Origin: Psammoneis japonica
Taxonomy: Eukaryota
Reading direction: 5' to 3'
Length of the DNA stretch: 64,000 bases
Assembly: GCA_008632985.1 (NCBI GenBank)
Contig: QPGO01000024.1
Coordinates: 372,001-436,000 of the forward strand
The position numbers and the translations under genes are program-made. The notes beneath the pieces were generated by a model that was not told the DNA's origin, made no database searches, and saw only the letters and a list, made by a program, of their open reading frames with translations. Positions 2,400 to 46,900 of this stretch are shown in pieces. How positions within the stretch are numbered: position 1 is the first letter of the stretch; each line of letters begins with the position of its first letter.

Positions 2400-2780
2400 A
2401 CGCGTCCTACAGTACCTGCCTATCCTCCTCGCCTGCCTGACTGCCTCTCTACAGTACTCTCTATGGCACCTGTCTCTCTCTACTCTCTAGCTACCGGTAC
2501 GTAGCTACTCTCTACTACTACTCTACTCTAGCTCTCTAGAGCTACTACTCTAGTAGTAGTAGTAGTCGCTATCTACAGTGCTCTCTCTCTCTACCGAGAG
2601 TAGAGAGCTAGAGCTAGCTAGAGCGCTCTAGAGTAGCTATCTCGCTCGGTCTCGCTCATCTCGCTCTATCTCTATGTACTGTACGGTACTCTGCCTGCTC
2701 TCTCTAACTTGGAAACTAGAGGGGCCTCTACTAGCTAGACTACTACTACTCTAGAGAGCTCTAGACTGCTAAACCTGGCA
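2400..2780. repeat. CTA/TAG/CTCTAGAG-rich low-complexity intergenic island
   Basis: Dense runs of ctcta, tagtagtag and ctagagctag with few TG/CA; smaller copies near 9840-9880, 33320-33500, 39270-39350, 48460-48520, 58995-59010. Confidence 0.8.
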
Positions 2781-2922: not shown

Positions 2923-3666
2923 CTAAAGCTCCTTCTTCTCCTCTTCAGCTGGAACTTCCCTATTTCCAAGGAAGGACAAGAAGATGTTGTACCCGATCTG
3001 GATGGTGTTGATGTACAACAAACGTTGCGACGGGGGGACAAACGCAAAGTTTCTGTGTAACAAAAGTGTTGCGAGGTTAGATTGGTGCATGAGCAGACGC
3101 TTAACTGACACATCATGAAACGAACAATAGACCTTGATCTTACATCGTATGCGCCGGAACCTGTTTAACCAAAGTGTTGCAAGGTGAGATTGGTGCATGA
3201 GCAGACGCTTAACTTATACATTATGAAACGAAACAATAGAACTTGAACTTACCCACACTGACCACGACCCTAGAACAGCGGTCTTCAGATCGTTCTTGAT
3301 CTTGTTTTGGTAGTCCTCGAAGGACTTGCCCTCCGTGATGTTGAGATATCCGAAGAACATGAGACCAAAGATGGGGTTCCAGATGGTCTGATCAATAGCG
3401 ACCTTGGTGGCTACGGTCGCGGGCTTAGTTCCTGGTAGTTTCGAGTCCAAGAATCCATAAAAGTAATGTCCCGTGGTTCCGTGGAGCAGAAATCCAAATG
3501 AACCCATTCGAATTGTACGAGAAACGTCGTACGGCTTGTCGCCGCCTTCAATGAAACTCTGGGCCAAAATGTCACCAATGGTAAATCCAGTCAAGGACGT
3601 GAGAGCCTTTGTTAAGAGAGGTTGAGCCTCCAACAAGGCGTTGTACCGAGCCCAAACTCCTGCCAT
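2923..3666 (-). CDS. Mpv17/PMP22 family membrane protein; exons 3666-3253, 3160-3144 (17-bp micro-exon), 3052-2923
   Basis: PLLTKALTS..GDILAQ, YDVSRT, KVAIDQTIWNP; spliced product reads WSVW|VPAHTI|NFAFVPPSQRLLYIN, the family C-terminal consensus. Confidence 0.92.
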
Positions 3667-16000: not shown

Positions 16001-16859
16001 CTCCACACACCCAAAAACACAGGAATCAACACTTCAGCTGTTTGAAAAAGACCCACTGGTTGTTGTGGTGGCCTCTAAAATGTGCTTGCATTTTCATGCA
16101 ATTTTTTGCCAATTTCTCCCTCCACCATGGCGGACCCGACGGCTGGCCCCACCAGGGAAGGACATTCATTCCAACAACCTTGGATGCCTCACAACATCAT
16201 TGGGGAAATGCAAGATGCATCAGAGTTGCTTGCAGTGACAACAGACATGCCTTTTTTGCCTGTTCAAGACATGCCACAAAATGCAGTGTCACAGTCTGCT
16301 GCCAAAGCATCATCTGTTCAGGCACATGACCCCCCTCCAAGTCTTCCTGCTGTGGACAGCTGCCAGTGGTCAAGAGAGCTCAAGTGTGGCTCAGCTTTGC
16401 CTCTTGCCCAGTCTGCCCTTTTTGGGTCTCATTCAAGGGGCACTCTTGGAACGCAACAAGAAAGATTGATTGTGCATTGGTCTTTGGGAAAGGACAGTGC
16501 AGTGTTGATGTTCAGCAGCAACTTTGGGTTTGTTGTTGTTTGGATTGTGTCACATCCCTCCTTTCCAACATTGATTTTTCCCACAAAAAAAAAAACAACA
16601 AAAAAGCTTTGTTTTGTGAGAATTGAGGCCAATTTGCAGCCCACAAGAGCCCAGCAGGAGGAGCCCTCAGAGAAACCAAGACTCTGCCACTGGAGCTGCT
16701 GCAGCACCGGCTGACAATCCCAACCCAGCAACTGCTGCCACTGCCACTGCCTCCATCAACAATGAAGCTGCTGCCCACCAGGCCAATGTGGACGGTGTCT
16801 CCTGCTCTCCAGCCACTCCACCCAAAATCTTGAATTTCTCCTCATGCATTGGCACAAAA

Positions 16860-18980
16860 TTCCCATGATTGTTGTTGCATCCCCTCCTGGCACCCAATGG
16901 AATCTTCCATGGCCTTGCAAGACAACTGATCACTTGTGCTGTCACACAGATGGCTCCCTGGTCTCTGTGCAGGTGTGGTGGCTGGGCCAAAGCCAGTCAT
17001 GTCAGAAAGAAAAGGACCACATTGACACAAAACAAGGCCTTTGCTCCCCAACCAAGGTTGTTGTCTCCCCTGGGACACAATGGAGTCACCCAAGGCCATC
17101 CAAAGATGACAACTGGGCACTTGCACTGTCACACAGAAGGCTCCCTTGTCTCTGCAGGTGGGGTGGCCAGGCCAAAGCAAGCAACAAATCACATCAGAAA
17201 GAAAAGGGGTTGCATCATTGGCCCAAGACAAGGCTTTTCCTTCCAAGCCATTGATGTTGTTGCCTCCTCAGGGACCCCATGGAGTCTCTTGTGCCCATCC
17301 CAAGACAGCTGAGTGCTTGCACTGCTGCGCGAAGATGGCTCCCTTGTTTTTCATGCAGGTTGGTTCTTGGCTGGGCCAACCCAGTTGTGTCAGAGAGACA
17401 AGGTGCCACATTGACACAAGACAAGGCCTTTGCTTCCCAGCCATTGTTGTTGTTGTTGTTGTTGTGTCCTCTGGGACCCAATGGAGTCATCAAAAGCCAT
17501 CCTAAGACAACTGAGCACTTGCGCTGTTGCACATGCAGTTTTCTCGTCTCTGCAGATGGGGTGGATGGGCCAAAGAACCCAGCTGTGTCAGAGAGACAAC
17601 GGCTGCATGGACAAAAGACAAGGCCTTTGTTGCTTCCCAGCCATTGTTGTTGTTGGCTCCCCTGGGATCCAATGGAGTCATCAAAAGCCATTCCAAGACA
17701 ACTGAGCACTCACACTGTTGCACAGATGGTTTTCTTGTCTCTGCAGGTGTGAGGCGGCTGCAACAAACCCAGTCATGTGAGAGGGACAAGGTGCTGCGTT
17801 CACAAGACAAGGTCTTTGCTTCCCAGCCATTGTCATTGTCGGCTCTTCTGGGACACGACAGAGTCACCAAAAGCCATGCAAGACAACTGAGCACTTGCGC
17901 CATTGCACAAATGTTTTTTTTGTCTCTGCAGGTGGGGTGGCTGTGCCAAACTTAGTTGCGTCAGAAAGACAAAGGGCTGTGTGGACACAAGACAAGGCCT
18001 TTGCTTCCCAACATTGTTGTTGTTGCATCTCTGGGATTCCATGGTGCCATCCCAAGACAACTGAGCACTTGCACTCTGTTGCACAGATGGTTTTTTGTCT
18101 CTGCAAGTGGGGTGGCTGGGTCAAACCCAGTCATGTCAGAGAGACAAGCTTCTGCATTGACACAAGACAAGGCCTTTGCTTCCCAACCATTGTTGTTGTT
18201 GCATCTCTGGGACCCAAAGGGAGTTCTCCAAGGCCATCCCAAGACAATGGAGCACTTGCACTGTCACACAGATGGTTCCCTTGTCTCTGCAGGTTGGCTG
18301 GCTGAGCCAAAGCCAGCCATGTCAGATGTCAGAGAGACAAGAAGGTGCTGCACTGACACAAGACAAGGCTTTTGCTTCCCAGCCATTGTTGTTGTTGCAT
18401 TTCTGGGACCCAATGGAGTCATTCAAGGCCATCTCAAGACAACTGAGTGCTTGCTCTGTCACACAGATGGTTCCCTTGTCTCTTGTCTCTGCAGGTTGGC
18501 TGGCTGAGCCAAAGCCAGTCATGTCAGAGAGACAAGAAGGTGCTGCGTTGACACAAGACAAGGTCTTTTGCTTCCCAGCCATTGTTGTTGTTGCATTTCT
18601 GGGACCCAACGGAGTTGTCCAAGGCCATCCCAAGACAACTGAGTGCTTGCACTGTCACACAGATGGCTTGGCTCCCTTTTTGTCTCTGCAGGTTGGCTGG
18701 CTGGGCCAAAGCCAGTCATGTCAGAGAGAGACAAGGTGCTGTGTTGACACAAGAAGAGGCCTTTGCTCCCCAACCATGGTTGTTGGCATGCCCCTGGCAA
18801 CCCACTGGACTCCTCCAATGCCACACCCATCCCAAGACAACTGCACACCTCCTTTGCTGTGTCTGTGGGCCTGATGCTTCCACACCTTGTGCAGGCAGCT
18901 GGGCATCTTCTTCTTGTTTGTGGAGGAATCACACAAGGGACTGCTGCTGCTGCTGCTGCCCAAGACAAGGCTTGTGGCTT
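16860..18980. repeat. Tandem array of ~175-197 bp units, about 11 copies
   Basis: Anchor acaagacaaggcctttgcttcccagccattgttgttg recurs near 17030, 17225, 17420, 17615, 17805, 17990, 18165, 18360, 18555, 18750 and partially 18960. Confidence 0.9.
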
Positions 18981-21261
18981 CCCAAATCAAAAATGCAAAG
19001 ATTCCGCCATTGGGCCAACCCACTCAACAATGCAGACTGAGTGCATTTGGGGTGCATGTCACACAGGCAGCAACTCAAACCAATGTGCATTGATGGTGAT
19101 GGCAATGATCTGGCTTGGCATTTGGCAAATGTTTGCTGGGACATGGGGACACAACCACCACATGCTCCATTTTAGTTTCTCAGGTGATGCTGGCTTGTGC
19201 ATCATGCACCGTCCACCTGGCAAGCCTGTTGCTTTCATTGGAGACACCAAGGCATGTGTCATCAAACTCACCACCAGAACAAGCCCCTTGGAACTGAGGA
19301 TGTGCAGCTGTGCAGACAAACTCTGGCCATTGCTTTCATTTGCAGTGATGGTGACAGGGAAGAAGACAAAACATTCTTCCCAGTCTCTGTCATTTGGCGA
19401 TGGCTTTCCAAGCAGCCATGCCATTGCTCACTTCATGAGATGCAAAGACCATGCCTTGGTGGTGAGTTTAAATCCAAGCAACTCTTCCTGCTGTTCCCGG
19501 TGCAGCACTGGGGGTGTGCTTGCCGAAGTTGCAATCAGGGCTCAGGTCAAAATGGAGAAAGAAGAGCACTGCAAATGCCTTTGAAAACATCTTTGGAGAG
19601 CACACTTCTTGTTTTTGTCATTGTCACACATCCAACCATGACACCAACAAAGTGAGTTGCAATGACAGGGGTGCGCCATTGTTGTTGGCAGTGCATGTCA
19701 GATTGGAGGATGTGACAACAAAGTGGATTGCAACAGGGGTGCACCATTGTTGTTGGTGGATGTTAGATTGGAGGATGAGTTGCACAGTGTCCAGCAGGAA
19801 AAAAGGACAGGTGCAGCAGCAGAGACACAGCAAAACAAAGGCAGAGAGCTGACAAATGGAAGGAAAAGGAAACAAGTGAAGCTGTTCTTGAGAGGTTTAA
19901 AATGAGGACAAAATGAGCCACACATGCAACTCAAACAAAGAGAGAGATCTCATGAACAAATGAAGCTGTTCTTGACAAGAGTTCAAAATGAGGACCAAAT
20001 GAGCCACACAGGTGACTCAACATGATGCTTTTGGGTCACGTCCATGCACAGCCATTTCTGTGATTTTTGACAAAAATGCTCACAACCCACAAAATCAATT
20101 CTTTTTTTTTCCAAGATGCAGACACAAGATGCAACTCAAGTTGACCATGGGGTCAGTTGTGGTGGCAACAATGTTTGACACCAAGTGCAAGAAACACCTG
20201 GAGAGTGTGTCAAAGCATCATTGTGATCACAAGGTGTGTTTCCTGAAGAAAGGCATCTTCACTCAATGCACTGAATTTCGTTTCTTCTGCATCTGACACT
20301 GCAGCAAATGTTTTGAAGGTCCAAAGTGGAGTGCACTCTGTGGACACCCATGACTTTGACAATGCATTTGACAAAGATGACAGAGAAAGGCATGCTCTCT
20401 TTCTTTGGTTTTGTTTTCCATGTCAAAAACAAAAGCAAGTGCAGAAATCCTTGCTTGTCACAAGGATCATCTGCAACAATCAAATTCACTCAATGTCTGT
20501 GTGTCAATCCATCCAAAAGCGTCAATCAATGGCTCAAATGCCACACCCTCTGTGACTTGATGAGACTTTCCTGGGCAGTTGTCAGGTGTCAAAAGTTTGT
20601 GCAAAAGTTCCCAAGGAGTCGCAAGCAGTTGGACATCAGATCCTGCAAACATGCCAGCTCTGGCCAAATTGATTGGGAGCATGGCTTGAACTGTTCATGT
20701 TGTCTGCAAAGAGGCATTTTCAAGTGGTCTCTGCTTGAAAGATTGGGTTCAAACTGCAAAAAATGCCACTGGTGACAATCAAATGACATGGCTGGCCAGA
20801 GCCCTTCTGTTGCACACCCACTTTCATTTTGTTTTGCACGCACTGAAGAATGTGCAGTTTGTTGACAATGTGGGTTGAATGCTGCACAATTGTCAGGAAG
20901 CATTTGCTGCACAAAAGGACATTGAATGTGAGCAATCACAAGAGTTGACAAGCACAATCAGTGCCATTTGACCACAAAAGGTGGGTTTGAGGACTTGGTG
21001 AGTGCACAGGCAGTTCTCTCTGCTGGGCTCCAAGCACTGGAGATCATTGCTGGGCCAGTGCTTGCAATGGCCAGCTGCAACTGGGAATCCTCTCCCATCT
21101 TGCAAATTGTCTGCTGTGACTGACCCACCCAACAAGAGAATCTGCAGTGCAGTCATTGGACCCCCTTCTGCTGCAATCTCCAAAAAGTGTGTGCATTGAA
21201 GGTCCAAGCACTGTGAGCATCATCCACATGCTGGAGAAGTCAAAAAAGCCAATGAGCATGA

Positions 21262-32960: not shown

Positions 32961-33663
32961 CGTGTTGGCACGTCGTTGACAAAACGAAATCTTTTTCTGG
33001 CTGTCGTTGCGGAACGGCTACAGTGGCACGGGGTCTATGGTGAGGAAAGCTACTGAAGTGACTACACTTGACTTGCTTTTGGTAATGGTGGCCTTGATAT
33101 TCTGTGTGGCGGCGACAAACCCGGCCATCATCATTGTCTTTGACATTTTTTTTACTGGAGAAAAAAAGAGCTCGTCAAATACTTCACCTTGAGTCACGAT
33201 TTGGCGGGACTCGCGGGCATGGATCGAGTCGTCCACGCGCACGTACCGGTACATTCTATCTGGTACCTACAAAAAAAGATGTTTGTGATTTTTTTTTCAA
33301 TCATAAAAAATCGATAAACCGGAACAGTAGGCTAGAGAGATAACTCTCTTTGCTCTCTACTCTAGAGCTAGAGAGGAACCTCTAGAGTAGTAGTAGCCCT
33401 ACTCTAGCTAGAGTAGCTAAAGAGATTGCGGTAGCTCTATAATGCAGCTAGCTAGAGCAGAAGGCCCTACAGTAGACTACAGTCAGTAGAGAGTCGTAGC
33501 TACTGCGTAGGACCGTGAGGAAAAATACAAATACAAGGTGTTCGAGGACATTGTTTTTGTGTTGCGATGGTTGTGTGATGTACTTCTAGTTAGCACATTC
33601 CGTACCGTAGAGTGAAAGTGAGAGACGTAAACCTATACATAATGAAATGCCGAGAGCCATAAT

Positions 33664-39347: not shown

Positions 39348-42300
39348 CTAGCCTGCCGGTGCTTGCAATGTCCAATGAGGTTCGACACGTGGTTCAACAT
39401 CGTGCAAAAAGTTCACGACACGACCATATCCTCGTGGCTGCTCATCGCGTAATATTCGCTTCAAACCCTTGTTGAAAGACATGAAACTGGTCTCAAACGC
39501 ACTCGCCAAATCAACGCTATCCTTGTAAGTGAAGAGATTGATGTCGATGTGCGCCCTTCCGTCCCACAGAACGACAACATCCCCTCCATCCAGAAAGCCG
39601 AAAACACGGATCCTTCGCCAAGACTGGTAAATTCCTCCACCACTGCGTCCGCCGCACCCTCAGATTCAATCGCTCCAAGTGCGTTCTGTACACCCCCCTT
39701 TACTTGATCTGACGTGACCGACCCCGAAGAACGCTGAAGCTCAATCTGAAAAACAGTTTGAAGTCCAAGAGGTTGTTGTGACTTCCACTGCTTCAACGGT
39801 GCAGTTTGGTCGTAATCGGATGGCTTGAAAAATTGAGTGGGTGTGAACAAGTCTTGGAACGTCCAGAGGCCGCCTTGAATCTCCCGTACGTCTGATTCCA
39901 GACCGGTCCGACTTTCAATCTCAGCAACAACGGCGTTAAGATGCTCAATAAAAAGAATATCTCCGGAGGATACAACCCCCATCTCCATACTGCTATCAGA
40001 GCTGTTGAAGAGAACCTGAAAAAAGAAAGAAACTGCTGTGAGCACCTGCAAAATGTCAAATGTTGCCGATTGAGCTAAGTGATACTCACTTCTGATCTAA
40101 AAACCGGCTCCCAACGTACTACATCCCTACGAAACCTCTCCAAGAAATTCCTCCTCCAAGTTTCATTGCTGTTGGTCGTCGTCGCCAAAACCATCACGTC
40201 CGAAGCTAAAAAGCGCTGCTTATTCATCTGGCTGGAGAAGATGGAGTGCATAATTTGAACCATCGAGAATGAGGCGATGGGATCAATGACAAGAACTCGG
40301 ACTTTCTTTTCTTCGGTCATTGCTCCCTTGAGCTTCTTCAGGGTAGCCTTTTCACACTCAAACTGAAGCCCGGCATTGCTCTCGACGTCTGGGCAACTCC
40401 ACAGAGCAATCACGTTTCGAACTTTGCTGATCTTTTTCATCCTGTCGAGATGACTGCATGGGTCTGATGCCTTTCCACAGACAACTACTGCAAGGATACC
40501 TTCGTCGTGGACAAGAGCCATACTCTCGTCTACCACCGTATCAATGGCGGCCTGTTCGGTAGGAATGCTTCGCTTGGTCTCGTCCATAGGATCGCACAAT
40601 TGCGTAACGCGAGGACCACGATTCTTCTCGTCTTCTTTCCATGTACTCACTCCGAACATTCCTCCTGCAACAATGCGGTACGATGACGAGGACACGATGT
40701 TTGCTTTAAACGTGTTGATCAACGCCTTTTTTATGTCTTCATGCTTCTCGAAAGCACTCCACAGATGAATATCAAAAGCACAGTAGTGATTGTCAGGCCA
40801 AGTGCGGGCGACTACATAGCCTTCCTGCAAAACCACAACGGCCATGCCTTTTTCGCCGTCGGGTTCGTGTAAAACAATAGAAACGACATGGAGCTTCGCC
40901 CCGTTGAGCGCCTTCGTCAGCAACTCCTTAACCTTGCTCGGGGGACGAAGAGGAGCACTAACATCTTCAGCCTCGACGATCATAATAATACCCGGGCTGT
41001 TCTCTTGTGTCTCCGGCTCTTTGATCTGTTCTTCTTTTTCGTTACAATACTTTCGAATGTCACGCTTTCGAAAATCATGGACGACTTCGTACCTATCGGA
41101 TATTTCATCGAGCGGCTTGACAAACAGGGTTTCTACATTGTGTTCTGTGAGTTCGCGATGTAAAAAGTTGACCTTGTTACTTCCCAATATTAAGCATTGG
41201 GAGCACACGACCGGGCAATCATAAAAATGTATTTGATATGTGTAGTCGAAGATCTCGCTCAATTTCTCGAGGTACATTTCGTTCTTCACGAAAATTCCTT
41301 CAGGCTTGAGAAGAAGAGACAGTGCTTCCAACACGTCCAGCTCTTCTGTGACTTTGAAGGACACTGAGAGACGAACAACAAACAAGGTGAGATTTGCAAA
41401 GCATTGCAGAGAACCAGACAGAAAAGAGCAATAGAACGTACTGACTGTCTCGGACAAATCCACCAGAACCAGGTCGAAAGAGCCAAAATATTCTTCTGGG
41501 AGCATGAGAAGGCTCTTTGTGGCATCCCCGTACCACCATTGAATATTGTCGTTATCGTAGCGAGGCTCCGTGCCAAAGTGCTTGAAACTGTTCCTTGTCA
41601 CCTTCTGGTCCAACTCAAGTCCAACCGCAAGCTCGAGGTTGGGGTATTTGACAATTTCGTGCAACAGCATGGAATCGCCTCCACCTACCCATACGACCCT
41701 TCGTATGTCCTTGAGGAAACGCGCCGTATTGTGAACCACCATCTCGTGATAATGAGGACGATAGCTGCTGCAAATCTGTACAATTCCGTCCAAGCGGAAA
41801 CACGTATCCAGGGTTTCGGGAGATTGAAAAAAGAACATATCTTGGTATGGTGAATATGGTCTATCAATGATTTCGTACCCGGTAAACGCAAACGTGCGGT
41901 CAACATCACAGGTTTCCGAGTCACGAGTAACGTGATCCTCTTGTTCTTCCAGCTCATCGTATCGCTGATAAAAAGCTGAGCAAGTGCCATCCTCTTGGTT
42001 GCAAACTTCGCTTGAGTCACCCGCCACGGCCTTTACGGCATGCGTCATTGCGACTACCAGCGCTTCGTGATACTGCCGTATCACATCACCCTCGTTCTTG
42101 GGAATTGCATCATTCGGCGGATCTAACTCAAGTTCTTTGATATGCTGCAGACGTTGGAGCTGCTCTTGAAGATAAGTGAGAATGTTATTGACATTCCCTG
42201 CTGCATAATACGGCATGGACTGCTGGGACTCTCCATTGACCAGAAACGAAAAGTTGAGTTCACCAGTTCCCGAGCCGTCCTCGGTGTAGACTTCATCAAT

Positions 42301-43368
42301 CTCAAACCCCAAACCGATTGCATCAAAGAACCACCGTTGCGGATACTGTTCAACGAATCCATAGTCTCGAAGAATTTCGGGGGTGCCGTAATGACTCTTT
42401 CTACCTCCACAGTCATTGCACATATTGTACGACATGTAAATCTCTTCTCCAGTTGTGATTTTGCGGGACGCTTTGACCTCAACGGTTCCCCCATTGGCAA
42501 AAACATCACTGTTGAGCCAGCGTCCATTGCGATGGCTTATCATGTCATATACAGGGACGAGGACGTCATCCCAGCCGCGTTGAACAACCATTAAGGCGGC
42601 GTTCTCGTCGAAAGGATCGTGTTTCCCCTTACAAGTAGTGTAGAATGCTTCATCCAACCACACGACAGCCGACTCGGGGGGAAGAATGTTTCGATGACTG
42701 TCAGGAATAAGCCCATCTGATAATTCTCGATCGCGCCGCCCCAATATCTCCATGAGAAGCGCTTTTCCGGCGTCAGACCACGCACTCGGCAACTGCCCAT
42801 ACTCCTGCGTCAAGAGGTAGTTCACGTATGCAGAATAGACCGAGTCGTTTCCCAGCTTCATTTCTCTAATTAGATTCTCAACCGTCAAACAGTCCATTGC
42901 ACCACTTTTTCGATGCGGTGGGCGAATTCGATGCGGCTCTACATTGTCCTCGACATCGCTGTCGTCGTATTCAACAAAGAAAGTGCCGTCCGGGTTTTCG
43001 GCTTGCACAGTTCCTGGATACCAATCTCCTTCGCCTAAGTAGTTGGCTTCGATATGGTCTCCGACTTGAATATGACATTCTGACTTTTTCTCTTTTATCG
43101 TATCTGAGTGAATAAGACATTCACGAGGAACAGAAAAGAGTATTTCGCTCTCCTCGATGTCGCCCTTTGCGAAGATGCCGAGTCTTGAAGATTTCTGCGT
43201 AGAAGTAGGATCGACCGTCCTGATCTCGAGCTTCGAGCTGAACGTTCCACCTTTGGAACGCAACCAATCTACTAGTTCTGTTACATGGTTCACCGATGCA
43301 CCGGAAGTCAAGGCAGGGACGGCCACCACCGATGTGAGCCAACAATGCCATACTCGTCGACCCGTCAT
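39348..43368 (-). CDS. Signal peptide + SET (Tudor insert) + spermidine-synthase-like aminopropyltransferase + AdoMetDC-like multidomain fusion; introns 41364-41441 and 40016-40089; 1-nt deletion at ~39588
   Basis: LGIFAKGDI, Tudor VGDHIEANY..WYPGTV..VEYDD, SET VPVYDMISH..EEIYMSY, HYHEMVVH and VVWVGGGD, GYVVARTWP..CAFDI; restored tail DEQPRGYGRVVNF. Confidence 0.85.
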
Positions 43369-43931
43369 TGTCTTGATTTGACTGTGGCGGATACTCTTTC
43401 ATTCGAATGCATGCAGCATGACCATCTACAGCATGAATATTGTTTATGATAGGGCACCACTGTACGTAAAAGAATACATACATACCGGTACAGGTATAGC
43501 CTACTCCCCATCGTTTATCGCAAGGATTTTTCCAGTCGTGAAACGAACCTGGCGACACCCTGACTACGACCTGACGACACCCCTGACGACATTCGATATC
43601 GCGTGTTTTTGCGCGATAGATGTCACAGTTGGTCACAGACGGTCACTCGAAAGTCACGGTCGTGAAGGTCAGAATTTTTTGGAACTTGAACGATGAGAAG
43701 TGCATTTTTAAAATGTTGTTTATCAAGTACTTAATAAAATAAAACCTGGCAGCCTCGCCCGAAAGGCGCCACTGCTACAGTGTGATACTGGTTGTACAGT
43801 ATGTACCGTACAGTACGTAGACGAAGTTTTGTTTGAATGAAAGCAATGACAAACAACGGGACAACCGAACCAACAACACACAACGCCAAAGCATACAAGT
43901 ACGGTAGCAGAGCGGAGAGCGGAGAGCGACC

Positions 43932-46900
43932 ATGCCAACAGAAGATAACCCAAGATCCCAAGAGAAGCAGGAGCGGGAGAGTATTTTGCAAGAGGAACGC
44001 CGAGAACGTGAAAGGCTGGAGAAGGAGGAGGAAGCGATGCGCAAACGGGAGCAAAACAGGATCTACAAGCAACGCAGTCGGCAGAACCCAGAGCAGGTCG
44101 AGCGGGAGAAAGTCGCTCGAATCGCCCGTCGAGAACGTAAAAAGCTGGAGAAGCAGGAGATGCAGGAGAAGCAGGAACGCCAACGAGAGCAAAACCGGTT
44201 GCGCAAACAGAGGAGTCGAGAACGGCAGCGCGAGGCATCAGTCATGGCCGACGGCAACGACGCCACGACCAACGGCAACACGCAGCGCAACGTGAACACG
44301 GGTGTTGCTCGAGCACCCCGACACAGTCCTGGTGATGAAGAAGTAAGTGATCGAAGATGGAAGAAAGTATCATTCCCCACACACGAACGCTCACATCATT
44401 ATTATTTCACTCTTCTTGCACTTCTGTTCGTCAACACACAGCATCAACCGATCAACAGCGGGGGCGACAACACCCAACGCCCAGTCAGTGCCGCCCGGGC
44501 CGCTACAGTTCTACGAGTTCCCGATCTACGAGTTACTCCGACGATACAAGAAGTCCTTTCTCATGGATGCTCCTCTTCCAATGTTGCGGACTTTGCTCGC
44601 CACTATGGTCAGATGGAGATGCAAGGCAATATGTATGAGCGACTGCTTGCAAGTAAGGACGAGGCAGCCAAAGCAAAGGACGAGGCAGCCAAAGAAAAGG
44701 ATGAGGCAGCAAAAGCAAAGCACGAGTTGCAAGGCAATATGTATGAGCGACTGCTTGCAAGTAAGGACGAGGCAGCCAAAAAAAGAAAAAAAAAAGCAAG
44801 CAAATGTAGAGCGACTGCTTGCAAGTAAGGACGAGGCAGCCAAAGCAAAGGACGAGGCAGCCAAAGCAAAGGACGAGGCAGCCAAAGCAAAGGACGAGGC
44901 AGCCAAAGCAAAAGATGACCACATCAACACGCTCAAGGAGCAGCGAAATGTGACGGAGGATGGTGGCGGCAATAAGGGTGGTTCCAATAGCAACAACGCC
45001 GGTAGTGGGACGCCCGAGTACTATCGTCGAATCGAGGGAAAGCTTGACGACGTGCGCACTATGCAGGGCCGACAGGGCCAGCAGCTGAGCGAACAGGTCA
45101 CGGGTTTGGGCGAACAAGTGTCGCAACAAACGAAAACCGTTCTGCAGTCCATGCAGCGTCCCGGTCCCTCGAGCAATCCGTCTCGTACCCCTGTGTCTCC
45201 TGGCGTAGGCAAGACGTTGGATCATATTTTCGCACAAGAAGACCCCCTGGAGAACGACCAGCGCAAAGTTTGCGAAGACTCCACCTCGTGGGACACAACC
45301 GAGCAAAATACGGCTAAGATCCAACACCGCGTCAAACTCATGGAGCAGCTTCGTAATGAGGGTTTCGTAGCTCCCCGGGAAGTCAAAATTCCTATCAAGG
45401 ACCTCGTTGAGGAGGAACTTGATCTAAAAGGTTTACTCCAGAAGATCAGCAAGGCAGTGGTTCGTACGTCCGATAACTGCTTGATGTTGCTCTTGGATCC
45501 CGATGACCTTCCCGGTGTAGAAAAACTTGCGGTTCCCTCCGATCACTACGACTACTACGAGTACGTTGACAAAATAATTGCTACGTACTTCCCCGCATCT
45601 GGTTTTGCATGCGAGTACAGCCTGGAGGCCAAGGTTGTTCTCGGTGATGCCAAGCACGAAGTAGATGTCACTGTCGCGGCTACTGGTGAGGAAGCAGCTA
45701 CGGCTACCGTACAAACGATTTGTGAGATATTTGGACGTACACGCGATGTCCAGGCATTCAGCGTGGAGGGCCCCCACTCCGAATCACGCCCATTCCTCAA
45801 GGGCAGCTTGCATTTTTTGAAGCAGATAGCCATCGGTTTGAAGAAAGAAAAACGCAACATGGTGGTGAAACTTGCCAAGTTCAGATTTTGGCACGAACAG
45901 GTTGACGCTCTGCTGGCTCTTGCTGACGACGGTCTGACAGTTGAGTTTCCCAATTGTGTTTCGAGGACGGCGAAGAAATTCCTCACACGGAGGAGGAGCA
46001 CTCACATATGAAAGAGGAGGACGACTCGCAGTCAGACGACGACAGCCCGCTGGTGGATCTTTGGGCACAGTGCAGCCTTGGCCAGAACAAACGCCGCTGC
46101 ATCGGCTGCAAGTTGGAGATTGACGAAGACCCTCCGTGTAAATATTGCAACTGCCTGTGCAAAGAAGATGCCGACAACCTAGACTGCCCTGCCCATTTCA
46201 AACAGTGTTGTGAGTGTTCGGAGCGGGTTGTGGCGGACTCCAATGCCTGTGATCGTTGTGGCTGCAAACTGTTTGACAAGCTTCTTGCGGCTGCAGCGGC
46301 TGCAGATGGTCGGCCCAGCGCCAAAGGCGATGCAGTCAACGCGGTTGGTGCTGGATCAGCTCCAGCGGGAAAAGGCAAGGAGGTCGTCAAAAGCCCAATG
46401 TTTGCCGGCAAGGGTGTCACTACTGTCGCCTCAAATGGGAGTTCTTTCTCCTTCGGTTTTGCAGCCCCTGCTTCAGATTCCACCCAAGGCTTGGAAGCCG
46501 AAGCGGCGGCTCCTACAGCAGCAAGCAAGGAAAGCTCCAAGACCTCAGCCGCCAGCCGCCAGGCTGCCACCAACAGTTTCTCCTTTGGTTTTGCAGCCCC
46601 TGATTCCGAGTCCGCCCAAGGCTCGGAAGCCGAAGCGGCGGCTCCTACAGCAGCAAGCAAGGAAAGCTCCAAGACCTCAGCCGCCAGGCTGCCACCAACA
46701 GTTTCTCCTTTGGTTTTGCAGCCCCTGATTCCGAGTCCGCCCAAGGCTCGGAAGCCGAAGCGGCGGCTCTGGCAGCAGCAAGCAAGGAAAACTCCCAGAC
46801 TTCAGCTGCCACCAACAGGCAACCAACTCGCCGAGTCAAAGGCCGCACTGCTGCACGCGCAGCCTCACTTCAGATGCCTGTTCGCCGAGTCACCACTCGC

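What the first reader, a model, noticed from the sequence alone, without database searches (positions are those of the whole stretch)
3053..3252. Twin near-identical introns flanking a 17-bp micro-exon: recent intron copy event
Seen: introns 3161-3252 (92 bp) and 3053-3143 (91 bp) align end to end with about 10 differences (~89%), sharing gttaagcgtctgctcatgcaccaatct. They are in different phases (0 and 2) and the exon sequence is not duplicated; the spliced protein is the intact Mpv17 motif WVPAHTINFAFVP. The other introns I compared do not resemble them. Established: simple tandem duplication would also copy exon bases, and clear intron transposition cases outside introner families are rare. 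Inference: local intron transposition (reverse splicing) or an introner family.
Basis: partly seen in the sequence, partly recalled or inferred. Interest (0 to 1): 0.75.

Follow-up and report, generated by a model that had tools for sequence, protein, structure and literature searches.

The report
Copied intron in diatom intron hotspot
A diatom membrane-protein gene carries two nearly identical introns only 17 bases apart, at a spot where other diatoms place a single intron at many different neighbouring positions, so it may be a snapshot of how an intron is copied and moves along a gene.

Summary
Confirmed. A minus-strand Mpv17/SYM1 gene has two GT-AG introns (92 and 91 nt, 82 of 92 columns identical) around a 17-nt exon. 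Similarity stops at the splice sites and the genome search finds only these two copies. A transcript-like contig of the same sample lacks both introns and keeps the micro-exon. Introner and single tandem duplication are not supported. It is a non-segmental same-gene intron duplication, a known rare class; this scan noted four more in this genome and two in other diatom genomes (unchecked). New here: among diatom orthologues 15 of the 27 positions from -8 to +18 nt around the upstream intron are used, 13 inferred from protein read-through and 2 seen only in DNA. Both twin sites occur singly in other diatoms, so which copy is the parent is open. A paralogue keeps one fixed site (55 of 64). Best reading: whole-intron local copy (about 0.8), by a splicing-guided route (0.45) or DNA templating (0.33). 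Boldest reading: the intermediate of intron walking by copy-and-loss (0.35).

The parts
3253..3666 (-). Coding exon 1 of an Mpv17/PMP22 (SYM1-type) gene, codons 1-138
   Evidence: (diatom homologues 78-88% identical)
3161..3252 (-). Intron B, 92 nt, phase 0 after Trp138; GT-AG, branch-point-like TCTCAC; sits in a G|GT...AG|GT proto-splice context
   Evidence: absent from the X2 contig
3144..3160 (-). 17-nt micro-exon encoding Val139-Thr143 and two bases of Ile144
   Evidence: Kept in the X2 contig between the two skipped introns; fills Pfam positions 31-36
3053..3143 (-). Intron A, 91 nt, phase 2 in Ile144; GT-AG, branch-point-like TCTAAC; T|GT...AG|A context, no target-site duplication
   Evidence: absent from the X2 contig
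2923..3052 (-). Coding part of exon 3, last base of Ile144 to the stop codon

Best explanation
One intron was copied whole, from its GT to its AG, into the coding sequence 17 nt from itself, in the same orientation, cutting out a micro-exon that must now be spliced in (shown: exact ends, two copies, spliced product; copy event about 0.8). The most likely route is splicing-guided (inferred): the excised intron was put back at a nearby site of its own gene, either straight into the gene's DNA while the parent stayed, or into the mRNA and then by cDNA recombination to give a 'moved' allele that recombined with the original inside the 17-nt exon. The copies have since drifted about 0.11 substitutions per site apart. 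The event fell in a stretch where diatom orthologues carry one intron at many neighbouring sites, so the twin is probably a passing state that ends with loss of one copy (inferred). Which copy is the parent is not settled; B is mildly favoured.
For: Ends of the repeat are exactly the splice sites, no exon base copied. Only two copies: DNA search and a 22-nt pattern with up to 2 mismatches. No microhomology or target-site duplication at either junction of A (sequence). Both spliced in the X2 contig. Differences lie along the whole length; the 28-nt identical run is not unusual (P about 0.11 for a run of 27 or more, simulated with 11 differences). B sits in a proto-splice context and its site is the commoner in relatives (5 against 1 of 211). 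Same-gene pairs were ascribed to reverse splicing in Oikopleura (passage of PMC3879977); insertion into R-loop DNA is argued in PMC10996645 (passages).
Against: Exact ends are also what selection would leave of sloppy DNA-level insertions in a motif whose length does not vary (157 of 211 homologues intact). [quoted passage not shown] If B is the new copy, its junctions carry 1-2 nt of microhomology and a 3-nt GGT repeat, which fits DNA repair as well. The codon split by A is ATA, the only ATA of 14 Ile codons in the gene and 1 of 34 Ile codons at that site in orthologues (13% in long ORFs of the sample), which may mean a base changed at insertion. No close relative was found to polarise the event (best 88% protein identity; tree unresolved).
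Confidence: 0.45

Rival explanations
1. DNA-level local copy: a break in the exon was repaired by template switching onto the neighbouring intron, or a tandem duplication of intron plus 17 nt (viable at first by exon skipping) was followed by exact loss of the spare 17 nt. Selection kept only the product that splices cleanly.
For: Very short distance between copies; parent retained without needing a crossover in 17 nt; 2-nt and 1-nt microhomology if B is the new copy (flanks); segmental local duplications are common here (95 of 100 repeat pairs in 864 kb); unchecked scan notes describe boundary-crossing tandem copies in diatoms.
Against: A single tandem duplication cannot give this: neither intron carries the 17-nt exon as prefix or suffix and both have the same length. 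No microhomology if A is new. Both ends must hit the splice sites by chance.
Confidence: 0.33
2. Two older, separately gained introns at B and A were made alike by gene conversion about 0.1 substitutions per site ago.
For: Both sites are occupied in other diatoms: B in P0015, P0067, P0130, P0133, P0168; A in P0210. A site 1 nt from A is also common (6 of 211).
Against: No relative seen with both: P0133 (B) runs in one block through codons 139-171 and P0210 (A) reads through B; four other B holders have tails too short or unalignable to tell. With 15 of 27 neighbouring positions used, sharing a site is expected. Conversion needs prior homology and would have to span both introns end to end.
Confidence: 0.12
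3. Two insertions of a low-copy or extinct introner family into one hotspot.
For: Introners can land within 15 nt of sites used by other introns (PMC4457414 passages); B has a 3-nt GGT repeat at its ends; the genome search gives lower bounds only.
Against: No third copy; none among 416 intron-like candidates in 464 kb; no terminal inverted repeat; folding weaker than shuffles, z +1.1 and +1.2; ordinary length. Two of two copies in one gene is not what a dispersing element gives.
Confidence: 0.05
4. Assembly artefact, or the micro-exon is not used.
For: X1 may be the source of the window's DNA and X2 is the same sample; X2 is not on record as RNA.
Against: Copies differ at 10 places; X1 spans the locus in one contig at word depth 58 with no variant; the X2 contig has both junctions; only the fully spliced model keeps the invariant motif.
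Confidence: 0.02

Closest known systems
Same-gene duplications (SGD) of near-identical introns, non-segmental half (Collemare et al. 2013, PMC3609843; parts 1-2 of 3 read)
   Same: Near-identical introns confined to one gene, flanking exons not duplicated, ordinary length and folding energy.
   Different: Described in fungi (82 introns in 24 species, half segmental); the text read gives no spacing. Here the copies are 17 nt apart, create a micro-exon and lie in a dense cloud of orthologous intron sites.
Nearly identical intron pairs of Oikopleura dioica (Denoeud et al. 2010, not read; known from a passage of PMC3879977)
   Same: Pairs within one gene, ascribed to reverse splicing; four pairs among about 75,000 introns.
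   Different: Animal genome; the passage gives no micro-exon spacing or link to near intron positions.
Near intron pairs / intron sliding (Lehmann et al. 2010, PMC2891723, passages; Rogozin et al. 2012, PMC3488318, passages; Bocco and Csuros 2016, PMC5010894, abstract)
   Same: Two intron positions under 32 nt apart in orthologous genes.
   Different: [quoted passage not shown] Here both members coexist, are spliced and are homologous in sequence, and 15 of 27 adjacent positions are used.
Introners and introner-like elements (PMC12130899 passages; PMC3609843; PMC4457414 passages)
   Same: New introns recognisable by sequence identity; can cluster near existing intron sites.
   Different: No copies in unrelated genes, no terminal repeats, no stable structure.
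Mpv17/PMP22 family, yeast SYM1-type (Pfam PF04117)
   Same: The host gene; 86% identical over exon 1 to a protein named SYM1 from Seminavis robusta.
   Different: Nothing unusual in the protein; only the gene structure is.

Membership tests
Same-gene duplication (SGD), non-segmental | Near-identical introns found only within one gene | tested here: met
   82 of 92 columns; two matches in the 91-Mb genome (lower bounds)
Same-gene duplication (SGD), non-segmental | Flanking exon sequence not duplicated | tested here: met
   flank local scores 4 and 7 of 30
Same-gene duplication (SGD), non-segmental | Length and folding energy like ordinary introns | tested here: met
   91-92 nt; z +1.13 and +1.16 against shuffles
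Spliceosomal (U2-type) intron | GT-AG ends, branch point, removed from the transcript | tested here: met
   Sequence; both absent from the X2 contig, whose RNA origin is inferred, one sample
Introner / introner-like element | [quoted passage not shown] | tested here: not met
Introner / introner-like element | Terminal inverted repeats or stable secondary structure | tested here: not met
   Best terminal repeat 6 nt with 1 mismatch
Introner / introner-like element | Target-site duplication | tested here: inconclusive
   3-nt GGT at B, which is also the plain proto-splice pattern; none at A
Near intron pair | Two positions under 32 nt apart in orthologous genes | tested here: met
   17 nt; B alone in P0133, A alone in P0210; inferred from protein read-through
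Near intron pair | The two introns exclude each other within one gene | tested here: not met
   Both present and spliced here
Intron gain by tandem duplication of a proto-splice site | New intron resembles neighbouring exon sequence | tested here: not met
   The introns resemble each other, not the exons
Intron transposition by reverse splicing | RNA intermediate; known parent and empty ancestral site | not testable with these tools
   No close relative, no RNA on record, tree unresolved
Mpv17/PMP22 (PF04117) | Pfam domain match | tested here: met
   Exon 3 33.1 bits above the cut-off of 27; exon 1 part 19.1 bits; full-length homologues 76 bits

The most novel reading that the evidence does not exclude
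Diatom introns walk. An intron is copied a few bases from itself and one copy is later lost, and repeated rounds have scattered one intron of the SYM1-type gene over at least 15 of 27 adjacent positions, nearly all 3-29 nt downstream of the site that the PXMP2-type paralogue still keeps. This window would be the missing intermediate of long-range intron sliding, with both members of a near intron pair present, spliced and still 89% alike; near intron pairs in diatoms would then not be mutually exclusive markers, and part of the 'rampant intron gain' of diatoms would be relocation.
Probability: 0.35. Interest if true: 0.8.

Novelty: new variant of a known kind. Interest (0 to 1): 0.58.

Why it matters
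How new spliceosomal introns arise outside introner bursts, and whether introns move more than one base, are long-standing open questions. A spliced, two-copy, exact-ended twin is a clean natural case of intron copying. Its place inside a dense cluster of orthologous intron sites ties two separate literatures together (same-gene duplications and near intron pairs) and gives a testable model in a group with many genomes and transformable species. On its own the twin is one more example of a known rare class that this scan has met several times.

Tried and rejected
No RNA holder was listed for the locus. X3 (small share) gave three short unrelated or distant pieces and X4 nothing; not used. Pfam on exon 1 alone at E 0.001 gave nothing because the domain straddles the introns. 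First reading of read-through tails put 8 proteins at site B and seemed to polarise B to A on the tree; re-reading showed that WVR(K/E) is Pro140 phase 1 (site confirmed in DNA in L074) and WVPYV is Pro140 phase 2, so that argument was dropped. 'Site A is unique' was dropped when P0210 appeared. The protein tree is a quick tree on 128 columns with 62 of 114 inner branches open and settles nothing. The strict intron screen missed intron B, its own positive control, and was replaced by a looser one that recovers the pair. That screen found no further clean twin in 80 stretches of 10 kb: of 100 repeat pairs 95 were segmental, and the 5 others were this pair (twice, once per strand reading) and three pieces of larger repeats. 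A and B show no similarity to introns of six related loci. Metagenome loci are biased to intronless or transcript contigs (69 of 80 without an intron). Paper searches for this combination; none listed a paper on twin introns or intron-site clouds in diatoms, but most subscription papers are not in the library and no supplements were read (lists of fungal SGDs there may hold closely spaced pairs).

Full report
What is there. The gene lies on the minus strand, ATG at 3666, stop at 2923-2925. Exon 1 (3253-3666) is followed by intron B (3161-3252, 92 nt, phase 0), a 17-nt exon (3144-3160), intron A (3053-3143, 91 nt, phase 2) and exon 3. The introns differ by 9 substitutions and 1 indel, 82 of 92 columns; the global score is 70 against a maximum of 9 in 2000 shuffles. 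The match begins at GT, ends at AG and does not enter the exons. Only the model with both introns removed gives the 186-residue protein; exon 1 and exon 3 cover Pfam PF04117 positions 2-30 and 37-62, and the gap is the six residues of the micro-exon. The named homologues are diatom proteins, 78-88% identical over exon 1, so the host is a diatom or close kin (inference).

Is it real and spliced. Run X1 holds the whole stretch in one 8.7-kb contig with no other letters; it may be the source of the window. Run X2, same sample, has a 741-nt contig that joins 3052 to 3251 with 15 letters between; these and two ambiguous letters make up the micro-exon. The tool guesses X2 is DNA and has no library record. 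I read it as a transcriptome because it has 63,789 contigs of 29.9 million letters, the contig runs from about 200 nt past the stop to 22 nt short of the ATG, and the genome search found no second, intronless copy (9 matches, next best 49%). This is one sample, and an inference.

Copy number and anatomy. DNA search and a 22-nt pattern with up to two mismatches find two places in 91 Mb, both here; these searches give lower bounds. There is no terminal inverted repeat and both introns fold less well than shuffles. B lies in a G|GT...AG|GT context; A lies in T|GT...AG|A with no repeat or microhomology at either end. A single tandem duplication would leave the 17-nt exon as a prefix or suffix of one intron or twice in the mRNA; neither is seen. 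The corrected distance is 0.106; with the laboratory rate of 2.3e-7 per site per year quoted in PMC12130899 (passage) that is about 0.2 million years, longer if cells divide more slowly in nature (inference).

How common. A screen for look-alike GT-AG pairs in the window and 80 stretches of 10 kb (864 kb, 0.9% of the genome) recovered this pair and no other clean twin; 95 of 100 repeat pairs were segmental and the rest were this pair twice and three pieces of larger repeats. About 397 strong-consensus intron-like candidates lay in that DNA, a rough denominator. The scan's notes list four more twin-intron findings in this genome (spacers 8, 8 and 21 nt, and a RAD5-like gene) and two in other diatom genomes; I did not check those loci.

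Intron positions in relatives. Of 80 metagenome loci, 69 had no intron (many are transcripts; several are long genomic contigs) and 11 had introns at codon/phase 24/0, 33/2, 76/2, 79/1, 121/0, 137/2, 140/1 and 141/0, none at B (138/0) or A (144/2). Proteins called from raw DNA run off into introns, and their tails show the site. Of 211 SYM1-type proteins were intact, 41 had tails assigned to 17 sites in codons 128-149, and 13 were left over (7 read as earlier introns, 6 unclear). From 8 nt before to 18 nt after B, 13 sites come from tails (36 proteins) and 2 more from DNA: 15 of 27 positions. Of 27 tails tested, 10 rejoin the downstream exon in one block, in or out of frame, near the predicted site; 9 were too short and 8 gave no clear match. 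To remove the bias of the first query, a second search was scored on residues 1-72 only (120 listed of 279): 19 distinct sites in codons 73-175, 10 of them within 25 nt and none in 150-175; scan probabilities under uniform placement ran from 5e-6 to 0.001 for 25-nt windows and up to 0.02 for 50-nt windows with three unclear sites added and the range cut. Among 67 cluster members, 13 had assigned breaks, all in codons 130-144, so late breaks do not seem hidden by clustering. The sites are not independent draws and most are inferred from protein, not DNA.

Control. For the paralogue L005 (PXMP2-type), scored on its N-terminal part only (120 listed of 519), 56 proteins were intact, 55 broke at one site (Trp135 phase 1 in my numbering, also held by paralogues L005 and L008) and 9 otherwise; four of those nine read up to or through that site and break within about 15 nt of it, one at the equivalent of site B. 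So the method shows a fixed intron as fixed, and the SYM1-type cloud is not an artefact of it. No SYM1-type protein broke at 135/1 (0 of 211). It also shows that scatter is not general, even in this family.

Polarity. Site B is seen in 5 of 211 proteins and site A in 1 (P0210, which reads through B); P0133 has B and no A. The tree is too weak to place them. B is mildly favoured as parent by its proto-splice context and commoner use. The codon split by A is ATA, rare at this site (1 of 34 Ile codons in orthologues; 1 of 14 in this gene; 13% in long ORFs), unexplained.

How it most likely works. Shown: two homologous, exact-ended, spliced introns, no third copy. Inferred: one was copied from the other in place (about 0.8). 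I put the splicing-guided route first (0.45) because it explains exact ends, orientation, confinement to the own gene and the lack of microhomology at A, and because the same step without keeping the parent would move an intron by a few bases, as relatives show. Against it, reverse splicing into DNA is unproven (PMC10996645 passages) and cDNA recombination should erase the parent (PMC3443670 passages). DNA templating filtered by selection is close behind (0.33). Conversion between two old introns (0.12) and an introner relic (0.05) are weaker.

Comparison with what is known. It meets the tested features of non-segmental same-gene duplications (PMC3609843, parts 1-2 of 3 read) and resembles the four Oikopleura pairs (passage of PMC3879977; the original was not read). 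It fails the introner tests. It is a near intron pair by distance, but such pairs are described as very unlikely to coexist in one gene (PMC2891723 passages), and sliding beyond one base is described as unsupported or accidental (PMC3488318 passages; PMC5010894 abstract). The main rival for the cloud is independent gain at an attractive stretch, as argued for fungal ILEs within 15 nt of other introns (PMC4457414 passages); the many intronless orthologues and the lack of similarity between this intron and those of six related loci leave that open. Eight paper searches listed nothing on twin introns or such clouds in diatoms; the library lacks most subscription papers and no supplements were read.

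Verdict. Observation confirmed; interpretation partly supported. A clean example of a known rare class, made more interesting by the spliced 17-nt exon and by lying in a cluster of 15 orthologous intron sites. Interest 0.58; new variant of a known kind. Most novel reading, intron walking by copy-and-loss with this as the intermediate: probability 0.35, interest 0.8.

Noticed in passing
SYM1-type orthologues, codons 136-144 (window 3144-3260 equivalent): 15 of 27 adjacent positions carry an intron in one diatom or another, none seen in codons 150-175.
   Followed up: yes
L005:1930-2010 and L008 (paralogues on contigs C135, C32): Both PXMP2-type paralogues hold an intron at Trp135 phase 1, 11 nt upstream of site B; 55 of 64 non-intact L005 homologues share it and a few have a nearby site instead.
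   Followed up: partly
window 61907-63004 (+): ORF with a Pfam PF12255 (TcdB_toxin_midC) match at its start, next to a stretch of raised GC (0.60 at 60-62 kb).
   Followed up: no
window 16800-19000: Degenerate tandem array of about 190-200-nt units, ten or more copies, poor in TA steps by eye.
   Followed up: no
window 2440-2760: Low-complexity CTAG/CTCT/TAG-rich intergenic stretch just downstream of the gene; a related piece near 33357.
   Followed up: no
window 40078-43398 (-): 1107-residue ORF joining SET, Agenet, spermine/spermidine synthase and AdoMet decarboxylase domain matches.
   Followed up: no
window 44616-44940 and 46421-46802: Coding tandem repeats of 21 nt and of about 125-132 nt.
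   Followed up: no
L092:6500-8300 (contig C1) and L116: Repeated-domain genes whose introns were duplicated together with their exons, the segmental kind of same-gene duplication.
   Followed up: no
window 3052 and 3144-3145: The Ile codon split by intron A is ATA, the only one of 14 Ile codons in the gene.
   Followed up: partly
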